Source of the DNA: Steroidobacteraceae bacterium
GTDB lineage: Bacteria; Pseudomonadota; Gammaproteobacteria; Steroidobacterales; Steroidobacteraceae
DNA length: 64,000 nt
NCBI GenBank assembly: GCA_035263105.1
Contig: DATFRO010000021.1
Span: 41,254 to 105,253 of the forward strand
Direction: 5' to 3'
Positions 4,985-54,529 of the stretch are shown one piece after another. The notes below the pieces were generated by a model. It ran no database searches, had not been told where the DNA came from, and saw only the letters and a list, made by a program, of their open reading frames with translations. How positions within the stretch are numbered: the stretch's first letter is position 1; each line of letters begins with the position of its first letter. Position numbers and translations under genes: made by a program.

Positions 4985-5572
4985 ATGAGTGCCGTGCGTC
5001 GCCTGTCGATCGGGTTCGCAACGCTGCTGCTCGCGGCGTGTCACTCGCATCCGCCGAAGTCGGATAAGCCCGAGCACGCCTCGAGCGAGATGGTGCTCGC
5101 CGGCCTCAGCAGCTATGCGCGGAACGTGCGCCAGGAAGATGACGCGGGACTCGCCGCCGAGAAGACGCGACTGGATGCGCTGCCCAAATCGGCGGCGCGC
5201 GATCTGCGGCTCGCGATGCTGCTCGACCAGGAACGGAGCGCGCTGTACGACCCGGGGCGCGCCTCGCAATTGCTCGACGATGCGGCGCATGCCAGCGCCG
5301 CGGAGCCCGCGGAGCGCGCCTTCGCGGACATGCTGCTCGCGACCGCGGGCGCCGAGCCGCGCTCCTGCAGCGAAACCGGTTTCACGCAGGACCTGGTGCA
5401 GAAGCTCGCGGACGAGGAGCAGCGGCGCACCGAGCTCACCACGCGACTCGAGAACACGCGCCAGGAGCTCGAGGCCGAGCGCACGCAGCGCGTGAAGCTC
5501 GAGAAGCAGCTCGAGGCGCTCAAGTCGATCGAAACGCAGATCAAGAACCGGGAGAACGATGCGGGGCACTGA
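4985..5572 (+). CDS. qseG: QseG/YfhG-like lipoprotein encoded between kinase and regulator
   Basis: Lipobox LLLAAC. The C-terminal coiled segment QLEALKSIETQIKNRE resembles E. coli QseG KLENLTDIERQLSTRK. Its position between glrK and glrR fits. It abuts the glrK stop and overlaps the glrR start by 14 nt. Confidence 0.65.
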   Translation: MSAVRRLSIGFATLLLAACHSHPPKSDKPEHASSEMVLAGLSSYARNVRQEDDAGLAAEKTRLDALPKSAARDLRLAMLLDQERSALYDPGRASQLLDDAAHASAAEPAERAFADMLLATAGAEPRSCSETGFTQDLVQKLADEEQRRTELTTRLENTRQELEAERTQRVKLEKQLEALKSIETQIKNRENDAGH

Positions 5573-6983
5573 AGTCAGCAGCCAGCCGGCGCGCATCCTG
5601 ATCGTCGACGACGACGTGAAGCTGCTGCGCCTGCTCGCGATCCGACTGCGGCGCGCCGGCTGGATCATTGAGACCGCTGAGGACGGCCGCCAGGCGCTCG
5701 CCGCGATCCCGGGCTTCCGCCCGCAAGTGGTCGTGACCGACGTGCGCATGGGCGGGATGGACGGCATGGCACTGTTCGAAGCGCTGCGTTCGCAGCACCC
5801 GACGCTCCCCGTGATCATTCTCACCGCGCACGGCACGATCCCGGACGCGGTCGACGCCGCGCAGCGCGGCGTCTTCGCCTACCTCACCAAGCCCTTCGAC
5901 AGCGAGCGGCTGACGGAAACGATCGGCAAGGCGCTGCGCGCGTCGGGCTCACAGGGCAACGGCGGTGGCGATGTCGCCGGCCAGTGGCGCGCCGAGATCG
6001 TCACCCGCAGCCCTGCAATGGAGGCACTGCTCGGCGCCGCTCGCAAGGTGGCGCACACCGATTCGAGCGTGCTGATCCAGGGCGAGAGCGGCACCGGCAA
6101 GGAATTGCTGGCGCGTGCCATTCACCGCGCCAGTCGCCGCCACGACCAGCCTTTCATCGCGGTGAACTGCAGCGCGATTCCCGAGGCGCTGTTCGAGTCG
6201 GAGTTCTTCGGCCATCGCAAGGGCTCCTTTACCGGCGCGATCGAGAGTCGCGTGGGCCTGATCCAGTCGGCGCACCAGGGGAGCCTCTTGCTGGATGAGA
6301 TCGGCGACATGCCGCTGACGTTTCAGTCGAAGCTCCTGCGCGCGTTGCAGGAGCGTGAAGTACGCCCGGTGGGCGCGATGGATCCGCTGCCGGTGGACGT
6401 GCGGGTGATCGCGGCGAGTCACCAGGACCTGGAGCTCGCGGTGCGCGAGCGGCGCTTTCGCGAGGACCTCTACTACCGCATCAACGTGGTGACGCTGGAG
6501 ATTCCCGCGCTCGGCTCGCGCCGCGAAGACATCCCGCTGCTCGCGACGCACTTCCTCGCCGCGATCCGCGCCAAGCTCGCCGATACCGCGGTCGACGTGA
6601 GCGGCTTCTCTTCGGAAGCCATGGAACTGCTGGTCTCCGCGCCCTGGCCCGGGAACATCCGCCAGCTCCGCAACGTCGTCGAACAATGCGTGGTGCTCGC
6701 CACCACGCCGCTGATCCCGGCCTCCCTGGTGCAGAAGGCCTTGCGCAGCAAGCCGCGCGAGTTCCTGCCGTTCGCCCGTGCGCGCGACAACTTCGAATTC
6801 GACTACCTCGTGAACCTGCTACAGATGACGCTCGGCAACGTCGCGCAGGCGGCGCGCCTCGCGGATCGCAATCGCTCCGAGTTCTACAAGCTCCTGCGCA
6901 AGCACAACCTCGATCCGCAGGTGTTTCGCAGCGACGAAGGCGCCGCGGCGCCTGGAAAAACCGACCGCCTGGAGCGGCAGTAA
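5559..6983 (+). CDS. glrR: sigma54-dependent response regulator GlrR/QseF (REC-AAA+-Fis HTH)
   Basis: The receiver segment ILTAHGTIPDAVDAAQRGVFAYLTKP is near-identical in pattern to E. coli GlrR ILTAHGSIPDAVAATQQGVFSFLTKP. It also has Walker A GESGTGKE, the GAFTGA-like loop GSFTGA and a C-terminal HTH. Confidence 0.85.
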   Translation: MRGTEVSSQPARILIVDDDVKLLRLLAIRLRRAGWIIETAEDGRQALAAIPGFRPQVVVTDVRMGGMDGMALFEALRSQHPTLPVIILTAHGTIPDAVDAAQRGVFAYLTKPFDSERLTETIGKALRASGSQGNGGGDVAGQWRAEIVTRSPAMEALLGAARKVAHTDSSVLIQGESGTGKELLARAIHRASRRHDQPFIAVNCSAIPEALFESEFFGHRKGSFTGAIESRVGLIQSAHQGSLLLDEIGDMPLTFQSKLLRALQEREVRPVGAMDPLPVDVRVIAASHQDLELAVRERRFREDLYYRINVVTLEIPALGSRREDIPLLATHFLAAIRAKLADTAVDVSGFSSEAMELLVSAPWPGNIRQLRNVVEQCVVLATTPLIPASLVQKALRSKPREFLPFARARDNFEFDYLVNLLQMTLGNVAQAARLADRNRSEFYKLLRKHNLDPQVFRSDEGAAAPGKTDRLERQ

Positions 6984-42366: not shown

Positions 42367-44685
42367 ATGCCGGGTTTGAACAGCGGGCAGCAACTGTCCG
42401 GGCGGTACAGTTTGCGCGAGCGACTCAGCGCCGGCCCGCTGGGTGAGACCTGGCGCGCACACGATTCCCAGCTCGATCGCGAAGTGGTCATCCGCCTGCT
42501 GCCGCAGGTGGCTCCCGCTGCGCTCGCGAGCGCGAACGCCGAGCTCGCGTCGGCCGAACAGCTCGATCCCGCCAGCATCGGCGCCGCGCGCAGCATCGAG
42601 CGCGATGGCGAGCAGCTCTACCTGGTTCGCGACTACGTTCCCGGCACCGATGTCTCCGCACTGCGCGCGGGCTCCTGGCGCGTCATCGCTTCCGCGGTGG
42701 CGGGAGCCGCGGACGCCCTCGCGAGGCTTCACCAGGCGGGACGCGTCCATCGCGACATCAAGCCCGGCAACATCGTGCAGCGACCGGATGGATCGGTGGC
42801 CCTCATCGATTTCGGCAACGCGGCGCTCGAGGGCGCGAACGCGCCGCACGGCGCGCTGTCGCGCTACAGCGCCAGCCCGCAACAGCTGGCCGGCGAGCCG
42901 GCGACGGCCGCCGACGATGCGTACGGCCTGGGTGCCGTGCTCTATGAGTTGTTGAGCGGCTACCCGCCGTTCTATCCGAATTTCAGCCGCGAGCGCGTGC
43001 TCTCCGAAGCGGTAGCGCCGCTCAAGCCGGCGCAGCCCGCGCCGCAGCCGCTCCTCGACCTGACCCTGCGGCTGCTGGCGAAGTCACCGGCCGAACGTCC
43101 CAGCGATCTCGCGCAGCTCGCACAGCAACTGCGTGAGCTGGTGAAGGGTGCAAACGACAGCGTCGCGAGCCCGAGCCGCGCGGCGGCCGGCTCGGATGCG
43201 GCGCCGGTCGTGACCATCGTGCGTCCGATCCTGCGTCCGGCCGCGCAAGGCGAGCGTACGAAGGCGGCGGCGGGTCCGCAGCGCCGCTGGTTGATCGGCG
43301 CCGCGTTCGCGCTGCTCGTGCTGCTCGCCCTCACGGTGCTGGTCGTGCTGCCGAGGTTCGTGCAGCGGCCGGCGGCCACGAGCACTGCACCCACCACCGC
43401 GAAGACTGCGCCCGCGCCCAAGCCTGCAGAGCCCGTCGAACCGGACCTGCGCACGCTCGCCGAGCAGATGCAGGAGGCCGAGCAGGTGCGCGACCAGTAC
43501 GACTCGCTCTACGAGTCGCTCGACAAGCGCGCCGTGAAAGAGTGGGCGCCGCAGCCCTTTGCCGCTGCGACCCACCACGGCGAAGAGGCGCGCAAGCACT
43601 ACTCCGTGCGCGAGTTCAAGGAATCAAAGGACGCGTACACCGCCGGCCTCGAAGAGCTGCGCAAGGCCGACGCGCTCGCCGAGCCGACGCTGCGCACGCA
43701 GATCGAAAAAGGCGAAGCCGCCCTCGTCGCCGGCCAGTCGGCCGCCGCACAAGCAGCCTTCACGCTCGCACTCAAGATCGATCCCGCGAACGCCGCTGCG
43801 ACCAGGGGCCTCAAGCGCGCGGGCACGCTCGACCAGGTGAACGCATTGCTGGCTAATGCGGCGAGCGCGGAGCGCACCGGCCAGCTGCCGCTCGCTGTGC
43901 AGCAGTTCGAAGAAGCCCTCAAGCTCGATCCCGACACGACAGCGGCGCGCGATGGCGCCGCACGCGTGCGTGCGCGCATCTCCGGCGACCAGTTCGCGGC
44001 CGCGATGTCGCAGGGGCTGGCACAACTTTCGGCGGGCAAGCTCGACGCGGCACGCGCGGCGTTCGAGCGTGCCAAGGGCATTCGCCCGAACGCACCGGAA
44101 GTGACCGATGCCTTGAACCAGGTCGCGCAGCAGCAGACCACGCTCACCATCGCGCAGCGTCGCGAGCAGGGAGAAAAGTTCGAGCACATCGAGCGCTGGG
44201 ATCTCGCCGTGGCCCAATACGATGCGGCCCTGAAGCTCGATCCGGGTCTCGAGTTCGCGCTCGCGGGCCGTGCCCGTGCCGCTCCGCGCGCGGAAATGGC
44301 CCAGCAGCTCGATGCGGTCATCAAGCAGCCGGAGCGGCTCCTCTCGGCCTCGGTGCGCGAGCAAACCAAGGCCTTGGTGGCGGCGGCGAACAAGGTCGAT
44401 CCGCAGGGCCCGCTGCTGCGCCAGCAGGTGACGACGGTGACCGCGAGCCTCGCCCAGTTCGAGGCGCCGGTGCGCATCGCGCTGGAATCGGATAACCAGA
44501 CGCAGGTGGTGATTCACCGCGTCGGTCAGCTCGGCATGTTCGACCACCGTGAGATCGACCTGCAGCCGGGCACTTACACGGTGATGGGAACCCGGGTCGG
44601 GTATCGCGATGTCCGCCGCGAGATTACAGTGATACCCGGGAAGGCACTCCCGCCCCTCATCGTGCGCTGCGAGGACCGCATTTGA
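42367..44685 (+). CDS. atypical Ser/Thr kinase-like protein: kinase domain - TM - TPR repeats - C-terminal PEGA-like domain
   Basis: HRDIKPGNIV and DFG are present. The Gly-loop is degenerate (SAGPLGE) and the VAIK lysine is replaced (VVIRLL). TM: WLIGAAFALLVLLALTVLVVL. TPR-like repeats follow, ending with PGTYTVMGTRVGYRDVRREITV. Confidence 0.8.
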   Translation: MPGLNSGQQLSGRYSLRERLSAGPLGETWRAHDSQLDREVVIRLLPQVAPAALASANAELASAEQLDPASIGAARSIERDGEQLYLVRDYVPGTDVSALRAGSWRVIASAVAGAADALARLHQAGRVHRDIKPGNIVQRPDGSVALIDFGNAALEGANAPHGALSRYSASPQQLAGEPATAADDAYGLGAVLYELLSGYPPFYPNFSRERVLSEAVAPLKPAQPAPQPLLDLTLRLLAKSPAERPSDLAQLAQQLRELVKGANDSVASPSRAAAGSDAAPVVTIVRPILRPAAQGERTKAAAGPQRRWLIGAAFALLVLLALTVLVVLPRFVQRPAATSTAPTTAKTAPAPKPAEPVEPDLRTLAEQMQEAEQVRDQYDSLYESLDKRAVKEWAPQPFAAATHHGEEARKHYSVREFKESKDAYTAGLEELRKADALAEPTLRTQIEKGEAALVAGQSAAAQAAFTLALKIDPANAAATRGLKRAGTLDQVNALLANAASAERTGQLPLAVQQFEEALKLDPDTTAARDGAARVRARISGDQFAAAMSQGLAQLSAGKLDAARAAFERAKGIRPNAPEVTDALNQVAQQQTTLTIAQRREQGEKFEHIERWDLAVAQYDAALKLDPGLEFALAGRARAAPRAEMAQQLDAVIKQPERLLSASVREQTKALVAAANKVDPQGPLLRQQVTTVTASLAQFEAPVRIALESDNQTQVVIHRVGQLGMFDHREIDLQPGTYTVMGTRVGYRDVRREITVIPGKALPPLIVRCEDRI

Positions 44686-47108
44686 GTCTTGCCCTGCGTC
44701 TGCGTGAGCCCCTCGGCGAACGCGCCATCTCGGCCAACGATCTGCCCCTTGCCCTCGGCGGCGAGGGCGCGAGTCTTGCCGTTCCCGGCGTGCCGCCAGG
44801 CGTGACCGCCGCCTACATCGGCTTCGACGAGCAGACCCCATACATCGAAGCCGTGGCGGACTCGGGCATCCCCGTGCTGCTCAACGGCCGCGCGCTGCGC
44901 GAACGCACGCCGCTCCTGCATGGCGATGTGATCCGCCTCGGCGATGCGCAGATCCTGTGCGCGGCGCGCGCCGGCACCGTCAACCTCGAGGTGATCCACC
45001 AGGAAGGCAACCAGACGCAGCCGCCGATCGTCGATCCGTCCGAGCAGGAGGAAGAGGTCGAGCTCGCGCCCGACTCGCAGGCGATCCGCCGCGTGGCGTT
45101 CAAGCCCGTGCTCGCGCCGCGCCAGCAGGTGCGGCGCAGTGCGACGCCCCAGCGCATCGGCCTCACCGCCGGCCTCACGGTGCTGTTCCTCGCGCTCTTC
45201 TACCTGGTGACGGCGAAGCCCCTGATCCTTGTCATCGACCCGCCCGACGCGAAGCTCGACTTCCGCGGCACGACGTTCGACTTCCGCGCCGGCGATCGCG
45301 TGCTCATGCGCCCGGGCAACTACAGCGTGGTCGCAACGCGCGCGGGCTACGAAACCGCGCAGCTCCCCGTGCACTTCAAGGGCGACAAGGGCGAGCAACT
45401 GAAGATCCGCCTCGCCAAGCTCCCCGGGCAGATCCACATCGACACGAATGGTGTGGCGGGCACGCTCAGCATCGACGGCAAGCCCGTCGGGCCCGTGCCG
45501 GGCGACTACCCGGTGACCGCCGGCAAACGGGAATTTCGCATCAGCGCGCCGCGCTACGAGGACTTCGCCGCGGCCGTGGAAGTGAAGGGTCTCGGCGAGA
45601 AACAGCGTGTCAACGCAAAGCTCAAGCCTGCGTTCAGTCCGGTGACGATCGAGTCCGAACCCGCGGGCGCGGCCGTCGCACTGGATGGCAAGGACCTCGG
45701 CGTGACGCCCCTGACAGTGCCGATCGATGCCGGCAGCTACTCGCTCACCCTCACGGCTGCGGGCTTTCGGCGCTGGGAGAGCTCGATCCAGGTGAAGGCG
45801 GACGCGCCGCAGAAGATCGGCCCGGTGAAGCTGGGCCTGCCGGATGGCGTTTTGCTGGTGCGCTCCACGCCCTCGCAGGCCGACGTCAATATCGGCGGCC
45901 GTTACCGCGGCCGCACGCCGCTCGACGTGAGTCTCGCGCCGGGTGTGCAGTACGAAGTGGTCGTGAGTCACTCGGGCTATGAAGACGGGCGGCGCGCCGT
46001 GCCCTCGAAGCCGGGAGAGCGGTCGGCGGTCGAGATGACCCTCAAGCCGATTCTCGGCGACGTCACGATTCGCGGCGATCCCGCGGATGCGCAGCTCTTC
46101 GTCGACGGCCAGCCGCGCGGGCCGGCCAACCAGACGATCGGGCTGCCCTCGACCGAGCTCTCGATCGAGATCCGTCGCGAGGGCTACCAGCCGTTTGCGA
46201 CCAAGGTCGTGCCGCAGCCGGGCCTCACGCGCGTGCTCGAATACCGCCTGCTCACGCCCGAGCAGGTGCGCCAGGCGCGCATTCCGCCGGTGATCCGCAC
46301 GCACACGGGCGGGCAGCTGCGCCGCATACCGACGGGCCATTACGTGATGGGCAGTTCACGCCGCGAGCCGGGCCGGCGCACCAACGAAGTCGAGCACGAA
46401 GTGGTGTTGCAGCGGCAGTTCTATGTGGGCGTATACGAAGTGACGAACGCCGAGTTCCGCCAATTCCAGCCCGAGCATTTGTCGGGCGTGGTGCGCGACC
46501 GCTCGCTCGACCAGGATGATCACCCGGTCGTCAACGTGACCTGGAATGATGCCGCGGCCTACTGCAATTGGCTGAGCGGGCAGGATGGACTCCCGCCTGC
46601 GTACACACAGCAGGGGGATACGTACGTGTTGGCGAAGCCGGTCACCACCGGATACCGCTTGCCGACCGAAGCGGAGTGGGAATGGGCCGCGCGCTACGAG
46701 AACGGACAGGCCACCCGGCGCTATCCCTGGGGCGCCTCGCTCCCGGTCCCGGAGAATTCAGGGAACTTTGCCGACAAACGGGCGCTCGCAGTCAACGCTA
46801 CCGCCGTAGAGAACTATGAGGACGGATTCGTGACCACGGCCCCGGTGGGCAAGTTTCCGGCAAGCCCGCTCGGGCTGTACGACATCGGCGGGAACGTGAC
46901 CGAATGGGTCCATGATTTCTACACTGTGTATCCGGAAGGGTCACCGATGACGACCGACCCGCTGGGACCCGACTCGGGGCCCCAGCACGTCGTGCGCGGT
47001 TCGAGCTGGCGCAGCGCCAATGTGGCGGAGCTGCGCCTGGCGTGGCGCGAACACGCGGACGGCAAGGCGCAACACATCGGCTTCCGGATTGCGAGGTACG
47101 CTGAATGA
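44682..47108 (+). CDS. FHA-like domain - TM - five PEGA-like domains - formylglycine-generating-enzyme (FGE/SUMF1) type domain
   Basis: N-terminus ...VLLNGRALRERTPLLHGDVIRLGDAQI (divergent FHA). TM: IGLTAGLTVLFLALFYLV. Repeated units end in GYETA, RYEDF, GFRRW, GYEDG and GYQPF. The C-terminus has HPVVNVTWNDAAAYCNWLS ... YRLPTEAEWEWAAR ... GNVTEWVHDFY ... RGSSW ... GFRIAR. Confidence 0.8.
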   Translation: MSLALRLREPLGERAISANDLPLALGGEGASLAVPGVPPGVTAAYIGFDEQTPYIEAVADSGIPVLLNGRALRERTPLLHGDVIRLGDAQILCAARAGTVNLEVIHQEGNQTQPPIVDPSEQEEEVELAPDSQAIRRVAFKPVLAPRQQVRRSATPQRIGLTAGLTVLFLALFYLVTAKPLILVIDPPDAKLDFRGTTFDFRAGDRVLMRPGNYSVVATRAGYETAQLPVHFKGDKGEQLKIRLAKLPGQIHIDTNGVAGTLSIDGKPVGPVPGDYPVTAGKREFRISAPRYEDFAAAVEVKGLGEKQRVNAKLKPAFSPVTIESEPAGAAVALDGKDLGVTPLTVPIDAGSYSLTLTAAGFRRWESSIQVKADAPQKIGPVKLGLPDGVLLVRSTPSQADVNIGGRYRGRTPLDVSLAPGVQYEVVVSHSGYEDGRRAVPSKPGERSAVEMTLKPILGDVTIRGDPADAQLFVDGQPRGPANQTIGLPSTELSIEIRREGYQPFATKVVPQPGLTRVLEYRLLTPEQVRQARIPPVIRTHTGGQLRRIPTGHYVMGSSRREPGRRTNEVEHEVVLQRQFYVGVYEVTNAEFRQFQPEHLSGVVRDRSLDQDDHPVVNVTWNDAAAYCNWLSGQDGLPPAYTQQGDTYVLAKPVTTGYRLPTEAEWEWAARYENGQATRRYPWGASLPVPENSGNFADKRALAVNATAVENYEDGFVTTAPVGKFPASPLGLYDIGGNVTEWVHDFYTVYPEGSPMTTDPLGPDSGPQHVVRGSSWRSANVAELRLAWREHADGKAQHIGFRIARYAE

Positions 47109-47521: not shown

Positions 47522-48353
47522 AGCCTCCGCGCCAGCCCCGGCTGCGCGCGCGACGCCACGCAGCTCTCAGCAGAGCGAGTTCCTCTTCAGCACCTTCGCG
47601 TTGATCATCACCGCGATCCTGGTGCATGCGCTCTACGTGGTGCACATCCGCCCGCGCGGCGACGCCATCATGGCCGAGCAGTTCGCGAAGATGCGCGTCC
47701 AGGCCAACTACGTGCCGGAGCGCTCGATCTACATCGTGGTGCACGAGTACGAGCCCGAGGTGTGCATCATCCTGATGATCTGGTCGCTGATCCTGCTGGG
47801 TCATCGCATGGTCGACAATCGCGCACAGCGCAAGCTCCTGGCATCGGGACTGCTCAACATCCCGCCGGGCATGCGCATCCTGCCGAAGGACACGCGCGAG
47901 TACGCGCGACAGATGGAAGCGCTCGATCCCAAGACCCAGGAGCTGCTCCTGCCGCGCGCGATCGTGGCATCGCTCGAGCGCTTCGGCTCGACCGACAACA
48001 TCCATGACGCCGCCGAGGCGGGCCGCGCGGTGTGCGAGTCCGAGGCCGAGCGTCTCGACTCCGAGCTCTCGATGGTGCGCTACACGGTGTGGGCGATTCC
48101 CGCCATCGGGTTCGTCGGCACGGTGCGCGGTATCGGCGCGGCGCTCCAGCAGGCGCACCAGGCGGTGTCCGGGAACATCAGTGGCGTCACCGAAGCGCTC
48201 GGCATCACCTTCAACGCCACGTTCACCGCGCTCACCTCGAGCATCATCGTGATGTTCTTCCTGCACCAGCTGCAGCTCGCACAGGAACGCATGGTGCTCG
48301 ATACCTCGAGCTACCTGGACCAGCATCTGCTGCGGCACATGCGCGCGTCCTGA
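47496..48353 (+). CDS. MotA/TolQ/ExbB-family proton-channel protein (3-TM ExbB/TolQ topology)
   Basis: TM1 FLFSTFALIITAILVHALYVV, a long cytoplasmic loop, then IPAIGFVGTVRGIGAAL ... GVTEALGITFNATFTALTSSIIVMFFLH, which parallels P-IGL-GTV-GI ... GIAEAL ... of ExbB/TolQ. No in-frame ATG precedes TM1, so the GTG at 47496 is proposed as the start (uncertain). Confidence 0.75.
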   Translation: MQHSRSTSEASAPAPAARATPRSSQQSEFLFSTFALIITAILVHALYVVHIRPRGDAIMAEQFAKMRVQANYVPERSIYIVVHEYEPEVCIILMIWSLILLGHRMVDNRAQRKLLASGLLNIPPGMRILPKDTREYARQMEALDPKTQELLLPRAIVASLERFGSTDNIHDAAEAGRAVCESEAERLDSELSMVRYTVWAIPAIGFVGTVRGIGAALQQAHQAVSGNISGVTEALGITFNATFTALTSSIIVMFFLHQLQLAQERMVLDTSSYLDQHLLRHMRAS

Positions 48354-48379: not shown

Positions 48380-49750
48380 GTGAGCAGGGGTGCCATCGAG
48401 ATCAACGACGCCGGCGTGCTCGTCGCCGTCGATGGTGTCGTGCGGCAATCGAGTCCCGGCTACGCGTTGCTCGATCGCGAGCCCACCGTGGTGGGCGAAC
48501 CGGCGCTGCACGCCGCGCGCATCGAGCCGCTCAACATCAACAATCGCTTCTGGAACGAGCTCGACGAGCGGCCGCTCCTGGTGCGCGCCGCCGCCGGACG
48601 CTCGCATGCGGATCTCGCGTACCTGCACCTCGCGCACATCTGGCGCGACCTTGCCGAGCCGCCGCAGGCCGTGCGCTTCGCGGTGCCGGCGACGTTGCGC
48701 CCGCAACAGCTGGCGCTCCTCCTCGGGATCGCGCGGGAAGCGCGTGTGCCGGTGGCCGGGTTCGTCGACACGGCCGTCGCGCTGGCCAGCACTGCGCCCG
48801 ATAGCGGCCGGCTGCTCTACGTCGATGTCCATTTGCACCACACGGTGATCACCGCAGTCGCCGTCGGCGAGCGCGCACGCCGTGAGCGCTCCGAGCTCGC
48901 GCGCAATGCGGGCTGGCTCGCATTCACCGACACGTGGTTGAGCATGGTCGGCCGCGAGTTCGTGGCGCGCACCCGCTTCGATCCGCTGCATCGCGCCGCC
49001 GTCGAGCAGCAGTTGTTCGACGCGTTGCCCGGCTGGCTCGAGCAGCTGCAGACGAGCGATGCGATCGAGATCGAGCTGCCGTTCGAGGGCGAGACGCATT
49101 CGGTGCGGCTCACGCGCGAGCAATTCGCGCTCGAGGCCGACGGTCTCTACACGGAGCTCCTGATGCGCGTGCATCGGCTGCGCACGCCGGGCCACGCGAC
49201 CACCATCGTGCTCGGCGACCGCGCCGCACTGTTGCCCGGGCTCGCGCAACGCTTTGCCGAATTCAACGACTGCAACGTGGTGCGCAGCTCCCCGGGCGCC
49301 GCCGTGATTGCCGCCGCCGCGCTCGACGGCGAGGCGACGGGCGATGACACCGTGCAACTGCTATGCGCGACGCCGCGTCTCGATGCGGGGATCACGCGCC
49401 TGCCGTGGAAGAGCCTGCAGGATGCGCGCCCGGCGGATGTCGTGGCCGCGCCTTCGCACCTTTTGTATCGGGGGCAGGCCGTGGCACTCGGTCCCGAACC
49501 GTTGCACATCGGTCTCGCCCCGCCGCGCGATCGCGGCCCGGCGCTCAGCGTGGTCGGCGCCGCGGCCGGTGTGTCACGCCTGCATTGTTCGGTGTTGCGC
49601 CTGCCGAGCGGCGCCGTGGTCGTCGATCACAGCCGCTACGGCACCTGGCTCAACGACGAGCGGGTCTTCGGCCGCGCGACGCTGCGCGCCGGCGATCGCC
49701 TGCGGCTCGGCCGCCCGGGCGTGACACTCGAGCTGATCACTTCGGGCTGA
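48380..49750 (+). CDS. degenerate Hsp70/actin-like (ASKHA) domain protein with C-terminal FHA domain
   Basis: The ordered motif analogues are AIEINDAG (phosphate 1), FAVPA, GFVDTAVALAS (compare IINEPTAAA), LLYVDVHLHHTVITAV (compare DLGGGTFDV), IVLGDRAALLPGL (compare LVGGSTRIP) and PGAAVIAAAAL. The FHA is GVSRLHCSV ... DHSRYGTWLNDERV ... LRAGDRLRLG. A GTG start is proposed (uncertain). Confidence 0.65.
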   Translation: MSRGAIEINDAGVLVAVDGVVRQSSPGYALLDREPTVVGEPALHAARIEPLNINNRFWNELDERPLLVRAAAGRSHADLAYLHLAHIWRDLAEPPQAVRFAVPATLRPQQLALLLGIAREARVPVAGFVDTAVALASTAPDSGRLLYVDVHLHHTVITAVAVGERARRERSELARNAGWLAFTDTWLSMVGREFVARTRFDPLHRAAVEQQLFDALPGWLEQLQTSDAIEIELPFEGETHSVRLTREQFALEADGLYTELLMRVHRLRTPGHATTIVLGDRAALLPGLAQRFAEFNDCNVVRSSPGAAVIAAAALDGEATGDDTVQLLCATPRLDAGITRLPWKSLQDARPADVVAAPSHLLYRGQAVALGPEPLHIGLAPPRDRGPALSVVGAAAGVSRLHCSVLRLPSGAVVVDHSRYGTWLNDERVFGRATLRAGDRLRLGRPGVTLELITSG

Positions 49751-49753
49751 GCC

Positions 49754-50854
49754 ATGCCGCGCAATCGCCGCCACACCGAAGTGTTCACGATGTCGTTCCT
49801 CGACTGCATCTGCTGCGGTTTCGGCGCGGTCGTGCTCGTGTACGTGATCATCAGCGCGACTGCGGGCGTCACCCGCGTGCACCAGGACGACGACCTCAAG
49901 GGCGAGGTCAACAAGCTCGAGGAGCAGGTGCTCGAGGGCTACAAGAACCTGGTCGTGTTGCGCAACACGACGCAGGTGACCACCAGCCAGTCGAGCAAGG
50001 CCTCCGGGCGCATCGCGCAGATCCTCGAGGAGCTGGAGAAGACGCGCGTCGAGCTCTCGACCTACACCGGCGACACGCTCTCGAAGCAGGAGCACATCAA
50101 CCAGCTCAAGTCCGACATCCGCGCGCTGGAAGAGGGCAACCGGCGCCTGGAAGCGGGCTCGAAGGACGTCGCCGAAGCCGGGCAGAACGTGCGCGCCTTC
50201 AAAGGCACCGGCAACCGGCAATACCTCACCGGCATCACGGTCACCGGCAAGCACGTGCTCATCCTCATCGACATGTCGGCGAGCATGCTCGATGAGACGC
50301 TGGTCAACATCCTGCGCATGCGCAACCTCCCGGACATCCAGAAGATGCTCGCGCCGAAGTGGCAGCGCGCGGTCTCGACCGTCGACTGGCTGACGACGCA
50401 GATTCCGCCCGACAGCGAATTCCAGGTGTACGCGTTCAACACCGAAGCGCACTCGATGATCGAGGGGAGCGACGGCAAGTGGCTCAAGGCGACCGACCCG
50501 CGTCCGCTCAACGCCGCGGTGGCAAAGCTCAGGCACACGCCGCCGCACGACGGCACGAGTCTCATCAATGCGTTCAACGCCGCAAAGACGCTCGATCCAC
50601 TGCCCGACCAGATCCTGCTGATCACCGATGGGCTCCCGACGCAGGGCGCGACCGCGCCCGCGATCCGCAAGGCGGTGGAAGTCGAGCAGCGCGCGAAGCT
50701 CTTCGATCAGTCGCTGGGGGCGCTGCCGCCGCACGTGCCCGTGAGCACCATCCTGATGCCGATGGAAGGCGATCTGCCGGCGCCCGCGCGCTTCTGGCGC
50801 CTGGCGCGTGAGACCGGCGGTGTCTTCATGATGCCGGCGAAGGACTGGCCATGA
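49754..50854 (+). CDS. ExbD/TolR-like N-terminal TM (with Asp) - coiled coil - vWA domain protein, paralog 1
   Basis: N-terminus MPRNRRHTEVFTMSFLDCICCGFGAVVLVYVI (compare TolR EINIVPLLDVLLVLLLIF), about 110 aa of coiled coil, and a vWA with MIDAS DMSAS ... GTS ... ITDG. Confidence 0.75.
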   Translation: MPRNRRHTEVFTMSFLDCICCGFGAVVLVYVIISATAGVTRVHQDDDLKGEVNKLEEQVLEGYKNLVVLRNTTQVTTSQSSKASGRIAQILEELEKTRVELSTYTGDTLSKQEHINQLKSDIRALEEGNRRLEAGSKDVAEAGQNVRAFKGTGNRQYLTGITVTGKHVLILIDMSASMLDETLVNILRMRNLPDIQKMLAPKWQRAVSTVDWLTTQIPPDSEFQVYAFNTEAHSMIEGSDGKWLKATDPRPLNAAVAKLRHTPPHDGTSLINAFNAAKTLDPLPDQILLITDGLPTQGATAPAIRKAVEVEQRAKLFDQSLGALPPHVPVSTILMPMEGDLPAPARFWRLARETGGVFMMPAKDWP

Positions 50855-51834
50855 AGCTCAAGCGCCACACCACCGAAGTCTTCAGCATGTCGTTCCTCGA
50901 CTGCATCTGCTGCGGCTTCGGCGCGATGATCCTGATCCTGGTGCTCACCGAGACCGGCCAGCCGATCGTGCTGGAGAAAGTGCGCACCGACATGCACGGC
51001 CAGGTGGCGAAGTTGCAAGCCGAGCTCTACGAGATCCGCGGCGAGACCGACATCCTCAACCGCGACCTGAAGGGCCGCATCGAGCAGCTGTCACTCGAGA
51101 AGAGCAAGCTCGCGAAACTGCAGGGCGACCTGAGCACCGTCAAGGGCCAGTACCAGAGCAGCCAGAAGGAATCGGAGATCGAGAATACCGAGGAGGGACA
51201 GCTCGTATCCGCGTACCAAAAGCTGACCGACGAGATGGAACGGCTCCTCAAGGCCGGCTACCACCGCCCGAAGAATTCCGCCATCGGCGGCATCCCCGTC
51301 GACAGTGAGTACATAATCTTCGTGGTCGACACGTCGGGCAGCATGCAAGAGAATCACTGGGACCAGGCGCGCAAGATGATGGAGGAAATCCTCGACATCT
51401 ACCCGCACGTCAAGGGCATCCAGGTGATGGACGACGAAGGCGCTTACATGTTCGATGGCTATCGCGGCCAGTGGATCGCGGACACGCCCGCGCGGCGCAA
51501 GGCGATCATGGACCGCTTCAAGACCTGGACCTCGTTCAGCAACTCGAACCCGGTCGAAGGGTTGCTTGCGGCCGTGCGCACGTTCTGGGCCCCGGACAAG
51601 AAAGTGAGCGTCTATTACTTCGGCGACGACTTCCCCGGCGAGTCGATCCAGGCCGTGCTCGACCAGATCGATCGCGCCAATCACAGCGAGAGCGGCGAGC
51701 GCCGCGTGCGCATTCACGCCATCGGCTTCCCGATGCCGCCGCGCGCGCCGCAATTCGGCAACACGCGCTACAGCGCGCTGATGCGCCAGGTGTGCGAGAG
51801 GAACGGCGGCACCTTCGTCGGCATGGAAAGCTGA
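50851..51834 (+). CDS. ExbD/TolR-like N-terminal TM (with Asp) - coiled coil - vWA domain protein, paralog 2
   Basis: N-terminus MKLKRHTTEVFSMSFLDCICCGFGAMILILVL is nearly identical to paralog 1. A coiled coil follows, then a vWA with MIDAS DTSGS. ATGA overlap with paralog 1. Confidence 0.75.
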   Translation: MKLKRHTTEVFSMSFLDCICCGFGAMILILVLTETGQPIVLEKVRTDMHGQVAKLQAELYEIRGETDILNRDLKGRIEQLSLEKSKLAKLQGDLSTVKGQYQSSQKESEIENTEEGQLVSAYQKLTDEMERLLKAGYHRPKNSAIGGIPVDSEYIIFVVDTSGSMQENHWDQARKMMEEILDIYPHVKGIQVMDDEGAYMFDGYRGQWIADTPARRKAIMDRFKTWTSFSNSNPVEGLLAAVRTFWAPDKKVSVYYFGDDFPGESIQAVLDQIDRANHSESGERRVRIHAIGFPMPPRAPQFGNTRYSALMRQVCERNGGTFVGMES

Positions 51835-52905: not shown

Positions 52906-54378
52906 TCAGCTGCGGACGTAAATCGTTTCCTTGTAGCGCACACCGACGGTCTCGACCGGCTCGCCGTTGACGAAGCGCGGCCGATAGCGCGCGCGCTTGA
53001 TGGCGCTCAGCACCGAGTTGCCGGCGGTATCGCTCGAGTCGTGGTCGCCGAGCTTGGCATCGCGCACGCGGCCCTCGGGCGTGACGGTGAACTCGATCTC
53101 GGCGTAGTGCGGCGTGTACTTGTCGGCTGCCTCATGCGGAGGCCGGGTGATCGATGGCGCGCGATAGATGACCGGGTACGGACTGTCGAGCGCCGCGGTT
53201 CCAGGCGCTCCCGGCTCGCTCAACGCCTTCCACGCGTCGCGGTAGGTGTTCATCGCCTGGCGCCACTGGCCCGCGGTGATGCGCCAGTCGCCGAGCTCGA
53301 TCAGCGTCTGCCCGCGCCCCGCGTTGTCCTCGCCCGGGTGCGCATCGTAGATCTTCATCGCGGCTTCGAGCGCGTTCTCGCCATCCGGGTTGAGCACGCT
53401 CGCCGTGCTCACGCCGTTGGCGCTCGCGGGAGTGGACACCGGCCCCGCGACGCCGCCGATGTCACCGGCATTCTCCGGAGAGCCCTCCGGACGCTCCGGC
53501 CCATAGAGGAATTCCATCCGGTAGGTGCGCGCGATGCCGCGCAGCGGACTGATCATCCGCATGTCGGTCTCGCCGCCTTTGCGGGCGATGTCGAGTGCGC
53601 GCGCATGGATCTGCCGCGCGGTCGTGAAGCGGCCTTGCGATTCGAGCCAGCTCGCGGTGCGCTCGAGCGCGGGCAGGATCCGCGGATCGTCCCGGCCGTA
53701 GGTCGTCTCGGCGAGCCGCAGCGCGTACTGTTGCTCGCGTTGCGCATCGTCGTACTGGTTGAGCGCGGAGTAGCCGGCGATCAGCGGGTCGAGGAGCTCG
53801 AGCTGCGCCGGGTTGAAGAGGCCGTCGATCTTGCGGCTCACGTCCACGGCGCGCTTCAACGCGTCGGTGGAGGCGGCATAGTCGCCGCTCGCCGCGTACG
53901 TCATGCCGAGCCCGAAGAGCGGCTGGATGATCTCGTGCGAGAAGCCGCCCTGGTTGGACTCGACGATCTTCACCGCGCGCTTGTAACTGGTTTCCGCGCC
54001 GCTGTAGTCCTTGACGCGCAGTTGCGTGGTGCCGAGATTGATCAGCGGGTTGACGAGTTGCGGGCCGTTCGGCCCGAACTCCTGCTCGGTCTGCTCGATC
54101 AGCTGGCGCGCGGGCACCAGCGCTTCGGCGAAATGCCGGCTGTCGAATTGCTGGCGGAACGCCTTATAGGTCCCGGCCCGATTCGAGCTGGCATCGGGTG
54201 CGGCCGGTGTCTCCTCAGCCGGCGTGGGCGGTGCTTTCGCGTCGGTCTTCTTGTTTTTGTCGGGCTTGGCGGAAGGTGTTGTGGTCGCGGGCGGCGTCGC
54301 TTGCAACGTCGTCGCCTGCGCGAGCGCCACGGCGCCTGAGGCCATCGCGATGAGGATGATGGATCTGAAGGGGATCAC
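52906..54378 (-). CDS. periplasmic TPR-repeat protein with C-terminal TonB_C domain
   Basis: A GTG start at 54378 with a GGAGGA Shine-Dalgarno gives the signal peptide (M)IPFRSIILIAMASGAVALAQA. TPR-like helical repeats follow. The C-terminus is HYAEIEFTVTPEGRVRDAKL ... SVLSAIKRARYRPRFVNGEPVE (TonB_C pattern). Confidence 0.7.
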   Translation of the reverse strand: MIPFRSIILIAMASGAVALAQATTLQATPPATTTPSAKPDKNKKTDAKAPPTPAEETPAAPDASSNRAGTYKAFRQQFDSRHFAEALVPARQLIEQTEQEFGPNGPQLVNPLINLGTTQLRVKDYSGAETSYKRAVKIVESNQGGFSHEIIQPLFGLGMTYAASGDYAASTDALKRAVDVSRKIDGLFNPAQLELLDPLIAGYSALNQYDDAQREQQYALRLAETTYGRDDPRILPALERTASWLESQGRFTTARQIHARALDIARKGGETDMRMISPLRGIARTYRMEFLYGPERPEGSPENAGDIGGVAGPVSTPASANGVSTASVLNPDGENALEAAMKIYDAHPGEDNAGRGQTLIELGDWRITAGQWRQAMNTYRDAWKALSEPGAPGTAALDSPYPVIYRAPSITRPPHEAADKYTPHYAEIEFTVTPEGRVRDAKLGDHDSSDTAGNSVLSAIKRARYRPRFVNGEPVETVGVRYKETIYVRS

Positions 54379-54529
54379 GCGCCGTCCTCCACCGGAACCG
54401 ACCGGGCCCGCGCACGCCATGAAGAACACGCGTCAGTATACCCAGCCTCGGGGACGGGTCGGCACGGCACGGAGATGAACTTGGACATTCAGGTGCAGGA
54501 CGAGTTCGTCCCGGCCAGGGCCGGCTCGG

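What the first reader, a model, noticed from the sequence alone, without database searches (positions are those of the whole stretch)
48380..49750. Degenerate Hsp70/actin-fold protein fused to an FHA domain, inserted between the channel gene and its TM-Asp partners
The N-terminal 360 aa or so show the ordered landmarks of the ASKHA (Hsp70/actin/sugar-kinase) fold. The nucleotide-binding loops, however, are altered: AIEINDAG replaces IDLGTT, and DVHLHHT replaces DLGGGT. The C-terminus is a recognisable FHA domain (GVSRLHCSV ... SRYGTWLND ... GDRLRLG).

An ATPase-like scaffold that docks on phospho-threonine, encoded inside a stator-like gene set, is unusual. It suggests that the motor's cytoplasmic face is controlled by phosphorylation. 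The start codon is uncertain because there is no in-frame ATG; GTG 48380 is proposed.
Basis: partly seen in the sequence, partly recalled or inferred. Interest (0 to 1): 0.6.

Follow-up and report, generated by a model that had tools for sequence, protein, structure and literature searches.

The report
Inert Hsp70-like adaptor with FHA domain
This gene encodes a cytoplasmic protein with the fold of an Hsp70 ATPase domain that has lost its ATP-binding motifs, fused to a phospho-signalling (FHA) domain; it appears to be an optional regulatory add-on of a recently predicted, untested proton-driven envelope motor.

Summary
GTG 48380..49750 encodes a 456-aa protein. Relatives have ATG or GTG at the same codon.

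- **Fold.** The N-terminal ~335 aa model confidently (pLDDT 91.8). The 50 Foldseek matches listed are all Hsp70/Hsp110. A family profile matches only Hsp70 NBDs among its 60 best PDB sequences (best E 4.9e-5).
- **Lost ATPase motifs.** All three glycine-based nucleotide motifs are replaced in 81 orthologues. So are the counterparts of Glu175, Thr204 and Asp206. I read it as a pseudo-ATPase.
- **FHA domain.** The C-terminus is a real FHA domain (Pfam 1e-7) but non-canonical. SxxH is kept. The Arg of GR and the Asn of NG are lost.
- **Context.** The gene always lies between a TolQ/ExbB-like gene and two vWA genes whose membrane helices carry an Asp. This is the "TPH-vWA" motor predicted in PMC12204202, which does not mention this protein.

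New here:
- 14 of the 32 operons inspected, from 35 sampled gammaproteobacterial genomes with the motor, lack this gene. It is therefore an accessory subunit.
- The intact FHA signature occurs only where the neighbouring TM-TPR protein carries a Ser/Thr kinase domain. Kinase-less operons have a decayed FHA or none.

Likely role: an inert cytoplasmic adaptor linking the kinase to the motor. Binding partners and phospho-dependence are untested.

The parts
48380..49750 (+). Whole gene: 456-aa Hsp70-NBD-like pseudo-ATPase fused to an FHA domain (GTG start, TGA stop).
48380..49384 (+). Hsp70 nucleotide-binding-domain-like fold, residues 1-335. No Pfam family covers it.
   Evidence: AF2 model. Foldseek: the 50 matches listed are all Hsp70/Hsp110. 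Profile A2 against PDB sequences: Hsp70 only, E 4.9e-5. Pfam finds nothing even at E 10.
48392..48415 (+). AIEINDAG (residues 5-12), at the position of the Hsp70 phosphate-1 loop IDLGTT. E7 and D10 are nearly invariant, the Gly and Thr residues are absent, and the hairpin loop is only 2 residues long.
48824..48844 (+). DVHLHHT (residues 149-155), in place of the phosphate-2 loop DLGGGT. D149 is kept. The three Gly and the catalytic Thr are replaced (family consensus D-x-x-L-H-x).
49214..49222 (+). G279-D280-R281, where Hsp70 has V-G-G of its adenosine motif (LVGGSTRIP). The two Gly (338, 339) align with D280 and R281, and R281 is conserved in 74 of 81 orthologues.
49385..49453 (+). Linker between the NBD-like and FHA domains, residues 336-358. 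Variable, with lower pLDDT (74-90).
49454..49738 (+). FHA domain, residues about 359-453 (Pfam match 391-444).
   Evidence: E 1e-7. (FhaA 3po8, E 1.4e-6).
49568..49588 (+). GVSRLHC (residues 397-403): the SxxH motif of FHA. S399 and H402 are invariant in 81 orthologues.
49625..49657 (+). DHSRYGTWLND (residues 416-426): FHA beta6-beta7 region. The canonical NG is Y420-G421, so the Asn is lost.
49511..49516 (+). G378-L379, at the position of the FHA GR dipeptide. The phosphate-binding Arg is L, W, A or S in most orthologues and is never the common residue.
47559..48353 (+). Upstream partner: TolQ/ExbB-like channel gene (Pfam MotA_ExbB). Its 5' end is uncertain.
   Evidence: conserved position.
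49754..50854 (+). Downstream partner vWA1: N-tail, TM helix with invariant Asp (SFLD), coiled coil, vWA domain.
   Evidence: PMC12204202.
50851..51834 (+). Downstream partner vWA2, a paralogue of vWA1 with the same SFLD membrane helix.
42367..44685 (+). Operon Ser/Thr kinase fused to a TM-TPR protein. Presence of its kinase domain tracks the FHA signature of the target protein. In this clade beta3 Lys is Arg.

Best explanation
The gene encodes a soluble cytoplasmic accessory subunit of a TolQ/ExbB-like proton-channel complex. In that complex the usual TolR/ExbD partner is replaced by two paralogous vWA proteins, each with an Asp-bearing membrane helix.

**NBD-like domain.** The N-terminal 335 residues descend from an Hsp70 nucleotide-binding domain and keep its fold. 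They have lost the glycine loops and catalytic residues needed to bind and hydrolyse ATP. I take this domain to be an inert protein-protein docking scaffold on the cytoplasmic face of the motor, not an energy source or chaperone.

**FHA domain.** It links this scaffold to the Ser/Thr kinase domain that this lineage has fused to the operon's membrane TPR protein. The link is most likely through a phosphorylated Thr on the kinase or a substrate. Periplasmic sensing by the TPR/kinase protein would then be passed on to motor assembly or activity.

**Shown**
- the fold
- the motif loss
- the FHA domain
- the invariant gene position
- the accessory (non-core) status
- the co-occurrence of the FHA signature with the kinase domain

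**Inferred**
- physical binding to the motor
- dependence on phosphorylation
- a regulatory (switch or clutch) effect
For: **Fold and homology**
- AF2 gives pLDDT 91.8.
- The 50 Foldseek matches listed are all Hsp70/Hsp110, E down to 2e-17.
- Profile A2 matches only Hsp70 NBDs among its 60 best PDB sequences, best E 4.9e-5.

**Loss of the ATPase machinery in all 81 orthologues**
- IDLGTT becomes IE(L/I)NDA(G/A), with a 2-residue hairpin loop.
- DLGGGT becomes D-x-x-L-H-x.
- In the GG adenosine motif the first Gly is variable and the second is Arg.
- The Glu175 counterpart is A, S or T. The Thr204 counterpart is mostly Q or R (His in the window). The Asp206 counterpart is hydrophobic (mostly Val).
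- There is no substrate-binding domain.

**Context**
- The gene lies between the ExbB-like gene and vWA1, with 26-nt and 3-nt spacers and no promoter or terminator signal between them.
- The order is the same in about 80 loci from Steroidobacteraceae, Woeseiaceae, Nevskiaceae and Acidobacteriota, apart from two loci (L018/L020) where no ExbB-like gene was detected.

**Accessory status**
- Of 35 sampled gammaproteobacterial genomes with the vWA2 gene, 20 have the NBD gene. 14 operons have the ExbB-like gene directly followed by vWA1.

**Coupling to the kinase**
- Every FHA-positive locus with enough upstream context has a Pkinase domain on the TM-TPR protein (about 55 loci).
- All kinase-less loci have one of two states. 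Either there is no C-terminal domain (L086, L106). Or there is a homologous but decayed FHA lacking G, SRxH and DHSxYGT (hhalign prob 98%, E 1e-13).
- In the NBD tree the FHA-less, kinase-less forms nest inside the kinase-positive clade. This implies at least one concerted loss.
Against: - The FHA lacks two of the six signature residues named in PMC3162421: the Arg of GR and the Asn of NG. MxiG-N also has only four of six, and it does not bind pThr.
- The window's own kinase clade has beta3 Lys replaced by Arg and a degenerate Gly-loop. It may be catalytically weak or dead.
- No conserved Thr that tracks the kinase was found in the vWA N-tails or in the cytoplasmic part of the kinase.
- The vWA N-tails look the same in operons with and without the NBD gene. 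There is thus no sequence hint of what the NBD-like domain binds.
- E7, D10, D149, H153, R168 and R281 are highly conserved and may line the former nucleotide cleft. A non-canonical ligand cannot be excluded.
- Most kinase-positive forms may trace to a single origin. The co-occurrence therefore rests on few independent events.
- No experiment exists on any member.
Confidence: 0.55

Rival explanations
1. The FHA domain works without phosphorylation. It would be a structural docking module, like the cytoplasmic FHA-fold domains of T3SS MxiG/YscD or the FHA next to the GltG membrane helix that is predicted to sit on the AglR pentamer. It would bind the kinase domain, or the motor, as a protein surface. 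The kinase would act on something else or be a pseudokinase.
For: - The Arg of GR and the Asn of NG are missing in all orthologues. MxiG-N, with the same count of signature residues, does not bind pThr (PMC3162421).
- Some homologues give faint Yop-YscD_cpl hits.
- The window-clade kinase has beta3 K->R.
- The GltG FHA is predicted to contact the motor pentamer (PMC11761067).
Against: - S399, R400, H402 and S418 are invariant or nearly so only where a kinase domain is present. They decay where it is absent. That pattern is expected for a phosphate-reading pocket.
- Outside the window's clade, 37 of the 47 aligned kinase sequences keep the beta3 Lys together with HRD and DFG.
Confidence: 0.25
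2. The NBD-like domain is still a ligand-driven switch. It would bind ATP, another nucleotide or a metal in a non-canonical way through its conserved acidic and basic cleft residues. It would then use that cycle to assemble or gate the motor, like a specialised Hsp70 or an ATP-bound but non-hydrolysing Ssz1/PilM.
For: - E7, D10, D130, D149, H153, R168, R199, D201 and E209 are invariant or nearly so.
- D149 aligns with the Mg-coordinating Asp of phosphate-2.
- Other ASKHA scaffolds such as PilM keep bound ATP (own knowledge).
Against: - All three glycine-based loops are gone, and an Arg replaces the second Gly of the adenosine motif.
- The Glu175, Thr204 and Asp206 counterparts are lost.
- The phosphate-1 hairpin loop is reduced to 2 residues.
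- No J-domain or GrpE-like partner is encoded in the operon.
Confidence: 0.12
3. The protein is an actin-like, filament-forming cytoskeletal element that links or tracks motors in the cytoplasm, as MreB does for the Agl-Glt gliding motor.
For: It belongs to the ASKHA superfamily fold. There is a precedent for MreB coupling to a TolQR-like motor (PMC11761067).
Against: - The 50 structural matches listed and all 60 sequence matches listed are Hsp70-type, not MreB/ParM/FtsA.
- Polymerising actins need nucleotide, and the binding motifs are absent here.
- The gene is dispensable in 14 of the 32 sampled operons inspected.
Confidence: 0.05

Closest known systems
Hsp70 nucleotide-binding domain (DnaK, Ssb, BiP), including non-cycling Hsp70s such as Ssz1
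   Same: - Same four-subdomain fold (Foldseek E 2e-17, TM up to 0.70).
- Detectable sequence homology in the correct register (E 4.9e-5), including the VPAYF-, INEPTAAA- and RDPLAxQRL-like segments.
   Different: - No Pfam HSP70 match.
- All glycine loops and the Glu175, Thr204 and Asp206 counterparts are lost.
- There is no substrate-binding domain and no lid.
- Subdomain IB appears reduced.
- It is fused to an FHA domain and encoded inside a membrane-motor operon.
FHA domains of bacterial Ser/Thr-kinase pathways (FhaA/Rv0020c, GarA, EmbR)
   Same: - Pfam FHA match above the cut-off.
- SxxH, the GT-x-(V/L)-N segment and the GD-x-(I/L)-x-(I/L/F)-G segment are conserved.
- It is encoded next to a membrane Hanks-type kinase and co-occurs with it.
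   Different: - The GR Arg and the NG Asn are replaced.
- The beta3-beta4 loop is longer.
- No PP2C phosphatase is encoded in the operon.
- The target phospho-site is unknown.
TolQ-like motor with paired transpore-helix vWA proteins (TPH-vWA), predicted in silico in Mol Biol Evol 2025 (PMC12204202)
   Same: The flanking genes fit that description: a TolQ-like gene, no tolR/exbD gene, and a heterologous pair of vWA proteins whose membrane helix carries the conserved Asp.
   Different: The main text of the paper does not mention an Hsp70-like protein, an FHA domain, a kinase or a PEGA/FGE protein. The protein studied here is an undescribed accessory found in 20 of the 35 sampled genomes that carry such a motor.
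PilM / GspL cytoplasmic domain (ASKHA-fold scaffolds of type IV pilus and type II secretion machines)
   Same: This is an analogy of design only. In both cases a cytoplasmic actin/Hsp70-superfamily domain serves as a docking platform next to a pair of paralogous bitopic proteins with periplasmic coiled coils (PilN/PilO compared with vWA1/vWA2). Based on own knowledge.
   Different: - The structural neighbours are Hsp70, not PilM or FtsA.
- No evidence was found that it binds the vWA N-tails.
- PilM keeps ATP binding.
Cytoplasmic FHA-fold domains of envelope machines (MxiG/YscD of T3SS; GltG of Agl-Glt)
   Same: An FHA fold at the cytoplasmic face of a membrane machine, with an incomplete pThr signature (PMC3162421, PMC11761067).
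   Different: Those domains are fused to the membrane protein itself and do not track a kinase. Here the FHA is on a soluble protein, and its signature tracks a kinase domain.

Membership tests
Hsp70 / ASKHA nucleotide-binding domain | Two-lobed, four-subdomain actin/Hsp70 fold | tested here: met
   AF2 pLDDT 91.8. The 50 Foldseek matches listed are all Hsp70/Hsp110. TM 0.61-0.70 to NBD-only chains.
Hsp70 / ASKHA nucleotide-binding domain | Sequence homology to Hsp70 | tested here: inconclusive
   No Pfam HSP70 hit even at E 10. The single-sequence search of PDB finds nothing. Family profile A2 matches only Hsp70 NBDs among its 60 best hits, best E 4.9e-5. Homologous, but outside the curated family.
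Hsp70 / ASKHA nucleotide-binding domain | Phosphate-1 (DxGTT), phosphate-2 (DxGGGT) and adenosine (GG) motifs | tested here: not met
   IE(L/I)NDA(G/A), D-x-x-L-H-x and x-R respectively in 81 orthologues.
Hsp70 / ASKHA nucleotide-binding domain | Catalytic residues (Hsp70 Glu175, Thr204, Asp206) | tested here: not met
   The aligned positions are A/S/T131, residue 154 (mostly Q or R, His in the window) and residue 156 (mostly Val).
Hsp70 chaperone | C-terminal substrate-binding domain and lid; J-protein/GrpE partners | tested here: not met
   The C-terminus is an FHA domain. No DnaJ or GrpE is encoded in the operon.
Hsp70 chaperone | ATP binding and hydrolysis | not testable with these tools
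   Needs biochemistry.
FHA domain (PF00498) | Profile match above the curated cut-off | tested here: met
   32.7 bits against 20.7, E 1e-7. PDB FHA domains at E 1e-6.
FHA domain (PF00498) | [quoted passage not shown] | tested here: not met
   G378 is invariant, but position 379 is L, W, A or S in most orthologues; Arg is not among the common residues.
FHA domain (PF00498) | SxxH motif before strand 5 | tested here: met
   S399 and H402 are invariant in 81 orthologues.
FHA domain (PF00498) | NG motif before strand 7 | tested here: not met
   Y420-G421: Tyr in 77 of 81 and His in 4 of 81. The Gly is kept.
FHA domain (PF00498) | Binds phospho-threonine peptides | not testable with these tools
   Indirect support only: the signature co-occurs with the operon kinase domain.
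TolQ-like / TPH-vWA motor operon (PMC12204202) | tolQ-like gene tightly linked to a heterologous pair of vWA genes, with a TolR-like Asp in the membrane helix and no tolR/exbD gene | tested here: met
   MotA_ExbB Pfam hit. vWA1 and vWA2 carry an invariant SFLD helix. No ExbD hit among the operon proteins.
TolQ-like / TPH-vWA motor operon (PMC12204202) | The target protein is a core, universal component of the system | tested here: not met
   14 of the 32 motor operons inspected, from 35 sampled genomes, lack the gene.
PilM/GspL-type ASKHA scaffold | Closest structural neighbours are PilM/FtsA; binds the N-terminal peptide of a bitopic partner | tested here: not met
   The neighbours are Hsp70. 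The vWA N-tails do not differ between operons with and without the NBD gene. Binding itself is not testable here.

The most novel reading that the evidence does not exclude
This would be the first 5:2-type ion-driven envelope motor (TolQ-like pentamer with a vWA-headed axle) known to have a dedicated cytoplasmic control subunit. That subunit is an Hsp70-derived pseudo-ATPase that sits on the motor and is recruited or released by a eukaryote-like Ser/Thr kinase through a non-canonical FHA domain. A periplasmic TPR sensor would thereby switch a proton motor on or off by phosphorylation.
Probability: 0.3. Interest if true: 0.75.

Novelty: new variant of a known kind. Interest (0 to 1): 0.58.

Why it matters
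- **Undescribed control of a motor class.** The Tol, Ton, Mot, Gld and Zorya motors are all 5:2 ion-driven machines. How their cytoplasmic faces are controlled is known for only a few. Here a large family has no Pfam model and no description in the literature searched. It has at least 1,502 clusters at 50% identity. It shows an Hsp70 ATPase domain recycled as an inert adaptor on a predicted new motor class.
- **A testable link to phosphorylation.** The comparative pattern (kinase domain present with an intact FHA signature; kinase absent with a decayed or missing FHA) is a concrete hypothesis that phosphorylation controls a proton motor.
- **Experiments are feasible.** Cultured carriers exist: *Steroidobacter agaridevorans*, *S. 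gossypii*, *Peristeroidobacter soli* and *P. agariperforans*. The Idiomarina example of PMC12204202 may serve for the kinase-less form.
- **A route to function.** The result also offers a handle on what the TPH-vWA machine does, which nobody knows.

Tried and rejected
1. **Direct sequence searches with the single protein.** Pfam, NCBIfam and PADLOC found only the FHA domain. phmmer against PDB found nothing.
2. **hhalign of family alignment A1 against this genome's own DnaK NBD.** The register was right, but the match was not significant on its own (E 0.02, prob 2%). The wider profile A2 was needed.
3. **Thr8 of the vWA N-tails (RHTEVF) as the FHA target.** Rejected. The Thr is present in only about 65% of orthologues and is absent from kinase-positive L120 and L121.
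4. **The NBD-like domain clamps the vWA N-tails, as PilM clamps PilN.** No support. The tails are equally conserved in operons that lack the NBD gene.
5. **A conserved Thr in the cytoplasmic part of the kinase (first ~340 residues, including the activation loop and juxtamembrane linker).** None reaches 60% conservation.
6. **Catalytic Glu retained as D130.** Rejected. Both profile alignments put D130 opposite Asn174 and put A/S/T131 opposite Glu175.
7. **tblastn suggested ten FHA-positive loci without a kinase domain.** This was an artefact of the divergent query. The nine tested with Pfam all have Pkinase at E 1e-25 to 1e-32.
8. **Defence-system reading.** PADLOC hits were generic kinase and coiled-coil matches only.
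9. **Model coordinates were not available.** I could not check whether R281 and the acidic residues fill the cleft.
Full report
**1. What is there**

The window has about 67% G+C. It carries a plus-strand operon (Pfam) in this order:
- lipoproteins
- a membrane Ser/Thr kinase with periplasmic TPR repeats (42367-44685)
- an FHA-like/PEGA/FGE-sulfatase membrane protein (44682-47108)
- a small secreted protein
- a MotA/TolQ/ExbB-like channel protein (ending at 48353)
- the target ORF (48380-49750)
- two paralogous proteins, each with an N-terminal membrane helix, a coiled coil and a vWA domain (49754-50854 and 50851-51834)
- a lipoprotein
- a convergent TPR/TonB_C gene

The target starts at GTG 48380, 26 nt after the channel gene's TGA. 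It ends at TGA 49748-49750, 3 nt before the next ATG. No promoter-like or terminator-like signal separates these genes.

**2. Start codon**

There is no in-frame ATG before residue 189. Three lines support the GTG start:
- The identical 456-aa protein is in the public collection.
- About 190 homologues, mostly 445-460 aa long, start at the same place with M-x-x-x-A-I-E-L-N-D.
- Twelve relatives carry ATG (six) or GTG (six) at the homologous codon, directly after the stop of the channel gene.

**3. The N-terminal domain**

No Pfam, NCBIfam or PADLOC model covers residues 1-345, even at E 10. The single sequence finds nothing in PDB.

Evidence for an Hsp70-type fold:
- AlphaFold2 with a 39-sequence alignment gives a confident model: mean pLDDT 91.8, pTM 0.79, no segment below 50.
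- Foldseek against PDB lists 50 best matches, all Hsp70/Hsp110 (DnaK, Ssb, BiP, Hsc70, mortalin, Sse1), with E down to 2e-17. Isolated nucleotide-binding domains give TM 0.61-0.70 (most 0.64-0.70) and rmsd 4.3-5.6 A over about 380 columns at 13-16% identity.
- A wider profile was built from FHA-less and distant family members (A2). Its 60 best PDB sequence matches are all Hsp70 NBDs, best Ssb1 at E 4.9e-5.

The profile alignment is in the expected register:

| Hsp70 segment | Family consensus |
|---|---|
| VITVPAYFNDAQRQ | vilavPgsfskeqLgL |
| IINEPTAAA | glVdaAvaaa |
| LIFDLGGGTFDVS | llhldlqlhravlt |
| VLVGGSTRIPKV | lllssraaaLpGl |

The domain is thus a true but very divergent homologue of the Hsp70 NBD. 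It is closer to Hsp70 than to MreB, FtsA or PilM.

**4. The ATPase machinery is gone**

Column counts over 81 orthologues, read with the alignments, show:
- **Phosphate-1.** IDLGTT is replaced by I-E-(L/I)-(N/V)-D-A-(G/A). In the model the hairpin loop is only two residues long (strands 3-9 and 12-17).
- **Phosphate-2.** DLGGGT is replaced by D-x-x-L-H-x (DVHLHH in the window). Only the Asp (D149) remains.
- **Adenosine motif.** In GG the first Gly is variable (D280 in the window). The second is Arg (R281, 74 of 81).
- **Catalytic residues.** The counterpart of Glu175 is A, S or T (residue 131); D130 aligns with Asn174, not with the Glu. The counterpart of Thr204 is mostly Q or R (His in the window). 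The counterpart of Asp206 is hydrophobic (mostly Val).

There is no substrate-binding domain, and the operon encodes no J-protein or GrpE. The same E-x-N-D start and the same absence of glycine loops are seen in the most distant family members.

I read the domain as a pseudo-ATPase.

One caveat remains. E7, D10, D130, D149, H153, R168, R199, D201 and E209 are invariant or nearly so. The former cleft could still hold some ligand or an internal salt-bridge network. I could not inspect the model coordinates.

**5. The C-terminal domain**

Pfam FHA matches residues 391-444 (E 1e-7, above the cut-off). The family profile matches FhaA, EmbR, Rad53 and GarA FHA domains.

PMC3162421 gives the FHA signature as GR, SxxH and NG. 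In this family:
- **GR.** G378 is invariant, but the next residue is L, W, A or S in most orthologues, and Arg is not among the common residues.
- **SxxH.** S399 and H402 are invariant.
- **NG.** It is Y420-G421.

Four of the six signature residues are therefore present. That is the same count as MxiG-N, which does not bind pThr. The FHA fold is certain; canonical pThr binding is not.

**6. Distribution and context**

- A scan of one genome per species found 384 genomes encoding a relative. Most are Steroidobacteraceae, including cultured Steroidobacter and Peristeroidobacter strains. Others are Woeseiaceae, Nevskiaceae and several Acidobacteriota.
- In all fetched loci with enough flank the gene order is the same: lipoprotein, kinase/TPR, PEGA-FGE, ExbB-like at -0.8 kb, target, vWA1 at +1.35 kb, vWA2 at +2.45 kb, lipoprotein, convergent TPR/TonB_C. 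The exception is L018/L020, where no ExbB-like gene was detected.
- A full HMMER search with the N-domain alone found 1,502 cluster representatives at E <= 0.001. The family is large.

**7. The system is partly known; this protein is not**

PMC12204202 (Mol Biol Evol 2025) describes, from computation, TolQ-like genes tightly linked to heterologous pairs of membrane-tethered vWA proteins. The "transpore helix" of those proteins carries the TolR/ExbD-type Asp, and no tolR/exbD gene is present. That fits the flanking genes here: both vWA proteins have an invariant S-F-L-D helix. The main text of the paper does not mention an Hsp70-like protein, an FHA domain, a kinase or a PEGA/FGE protein.

**8. 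The protein is an accessory subunit**

I searched an evenly drawn sample of 400 gammaproteobacterial genomes.
- 35 genomes have the vWA2-type gene.
- 17 gave an NBD match in the direct search.
- I fetched the other loci and scanned them with HMMs built from the orthologues. Three more have a short, divergent NBD gene.
- 14 operons have the ExbB-like gene directly followed by vWA1, with no gene between them. Some of these (L123, L125, L140) are otherwise as close to the window's system as operons that do have the gene.

The NBD protein has thus been gained or lost repeatedly and is not needed for the motor core. This argues for a regulatory or adaptor role.

**9. The FHA signature tracks the kinase domain**

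Among loci with enough upstream context, three states occur.
- **State i.** The TM-TPR protein carries a Pkinase domain, and the target carries an FHA with G-(V/I)-S-R-x-H-C and D-H-S-x-Y-G-T-(F/W)-(L/V)-N. This holds for the window, L120, L121 and about 55 of the loci. tblastn missed the kinase domain in ten of these; the nine I tested with Pfam have it at E 1e-25 to 1e-32.
- **State ii.** The TM-TPR protein starts at the juxtamembrane segment and has no kinase domain. The target keeps a C-terminal domain homologous to the FHA (hhalign prob 98%, E 1e-13). It has lost the G, the SRxH and the DHSxYGT motifs (L108-L118).
- **State iii.** There is no kinase domain and no C-terminal domain at all. 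The proteins are 347-348 aa and are followed at once by vWA1 (L086, L106). L105 and L107 are also FHA-less but too short to show the kinase position.

No discordant locus was seen.

In a maximum-likelihood tree of the NBD domains, all kinase-positive forms fall in one well-supported clade (97/99). The pair L086/L106 nests inside it, as do L107 and L113. Ten state-ii forms lie outside. The pattern therefore rests on one origin plus one to three concerted losses. That is few events, but all point the same way.

**10. What weakens the phosphorylation reading in this genome**

The window's kinase and its five closest relatives (82-89% identical targets) have Arg in place of the beta3 Lys and a degenerate Gly-loop. 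The next relative (L016) and all the other aligned sequences that cover this position keep the Lys; K is present in 37 of the 47 aligned sequences. HRD and DFG are intact. The kinase here may be weak or inactive, or another kinase may serve.

I found no conserved Thr that tracks the kinase, either in the vWA N-tails or in the cytoplasmic part of the kinase.

**11. Mechanism**

My best reading, with confidence about 0.55:
- The protein is an inert Hsp70-derived scaffold at the cytoplasmic face of the TolQ-like/vWA motor.
- Its FHA domain couples it to the kinase domain of the TM-TPR sensor.
- The likely effect is to control assembly or activity of the motor.

Fold, motif loss, operon position, accessory status and kinase/FHA co-occurrence are shown. 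Binding partners, phospho-dependence and the direction of control are inferred.

Rivals:
- a phospho-independent structural FHA (0.25)
- a non-canonical ligand-driven switch (0.12)
- an actin-like polymer (0.05)

**12. Earlier notes of this scan**

Other agents reached similar readings on relatives in other genomes. I treated these as leads and re-derived each point here.

Noticed in passing
window 42367-44685: The operon kinase has Arg instead of the invariant beta3 Lys (VIRLL) and a degenerate Gly-loop (SAGPLGE). This occurs only in the window and its five closest relatives. L016 and all the other aligned orthologues that cover this position keep VA(L/V)K and GxGxxG. SPQQ replaces APE family-wide.
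   Followed up: yes
L123, L124, L125, L130-L140 (gammaproteobacterial genomes): Otherwise complete TM-TPR / PEGA-FGE / ExbB-like / vWA1 / vWA2 operons have no gene between the ExbB-like gene and vWA1. The Hsp70-like protein is optional.
   Followed up: yes
L110:13346-14107; L112 and L116: Gene-order variants. In L110 the ExbB-like gene lies after vWA2 instead of before the NBD gene. In L112 and L116 no ExbB-like gene was detected within the 20-kb stretch.
   Followed up: no
L018 and L020: No ExbB-like gene was detected by tblastn between PEGA-FGE and the NBD-FHA gene, although the rest of the operon is intact.
   Followed up: no
window 44682-44980 (N-terminal ~95 aa of the PEGA/FGE protein): This cytoplasmic N-terminal domain is FHA-like. 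Its HMM cross-hits the C-terminal domain of the NBD protein in L117 and L121. It lacks the FHA signature and is also present in kinase-less operons (L086, L106, L113, L123), so it does not track the kinase.
   Followed up: partly
window 49754-49870 and 50851-50960: Both vWA proteins share a short basic N-tail followed by (F)-S-(M/L)-S-F-L-D-x-(I/M)-x-C-G-(F/L)-G-A. The Asp is kept in every complete copy inspected, with or without kinase or NBD.
   Followed up: yes
window 52906-54429 (minus strand): The convergent TPR/TonB_C gene is conserved at the same place in most loci (27-73% identity by tblastn). It probably belongs to the system.
   Followed up: partly
L086:4258-6586: In this metagenomic locus the FGE-sulfatase part of the PEGA-FGE gene is split into two ORFs (4258-6294 and 6341-6586). 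This could be a frameshift or a sequencing error.
   Followed up: no
L001:1-727: The intein-containing radical SAM gene upstream of the operon in the window is also found upstream of the operon in a 40%-identity relative. The synteny therefore extends beyond the operon.
   Followed up: no
L137:14660-15478: A separate 482-aa ORF with a kinase-domain match lies about 4 kb downstream of a kinase-less, NBD-less operon. It was not examined.
   Followed up: no
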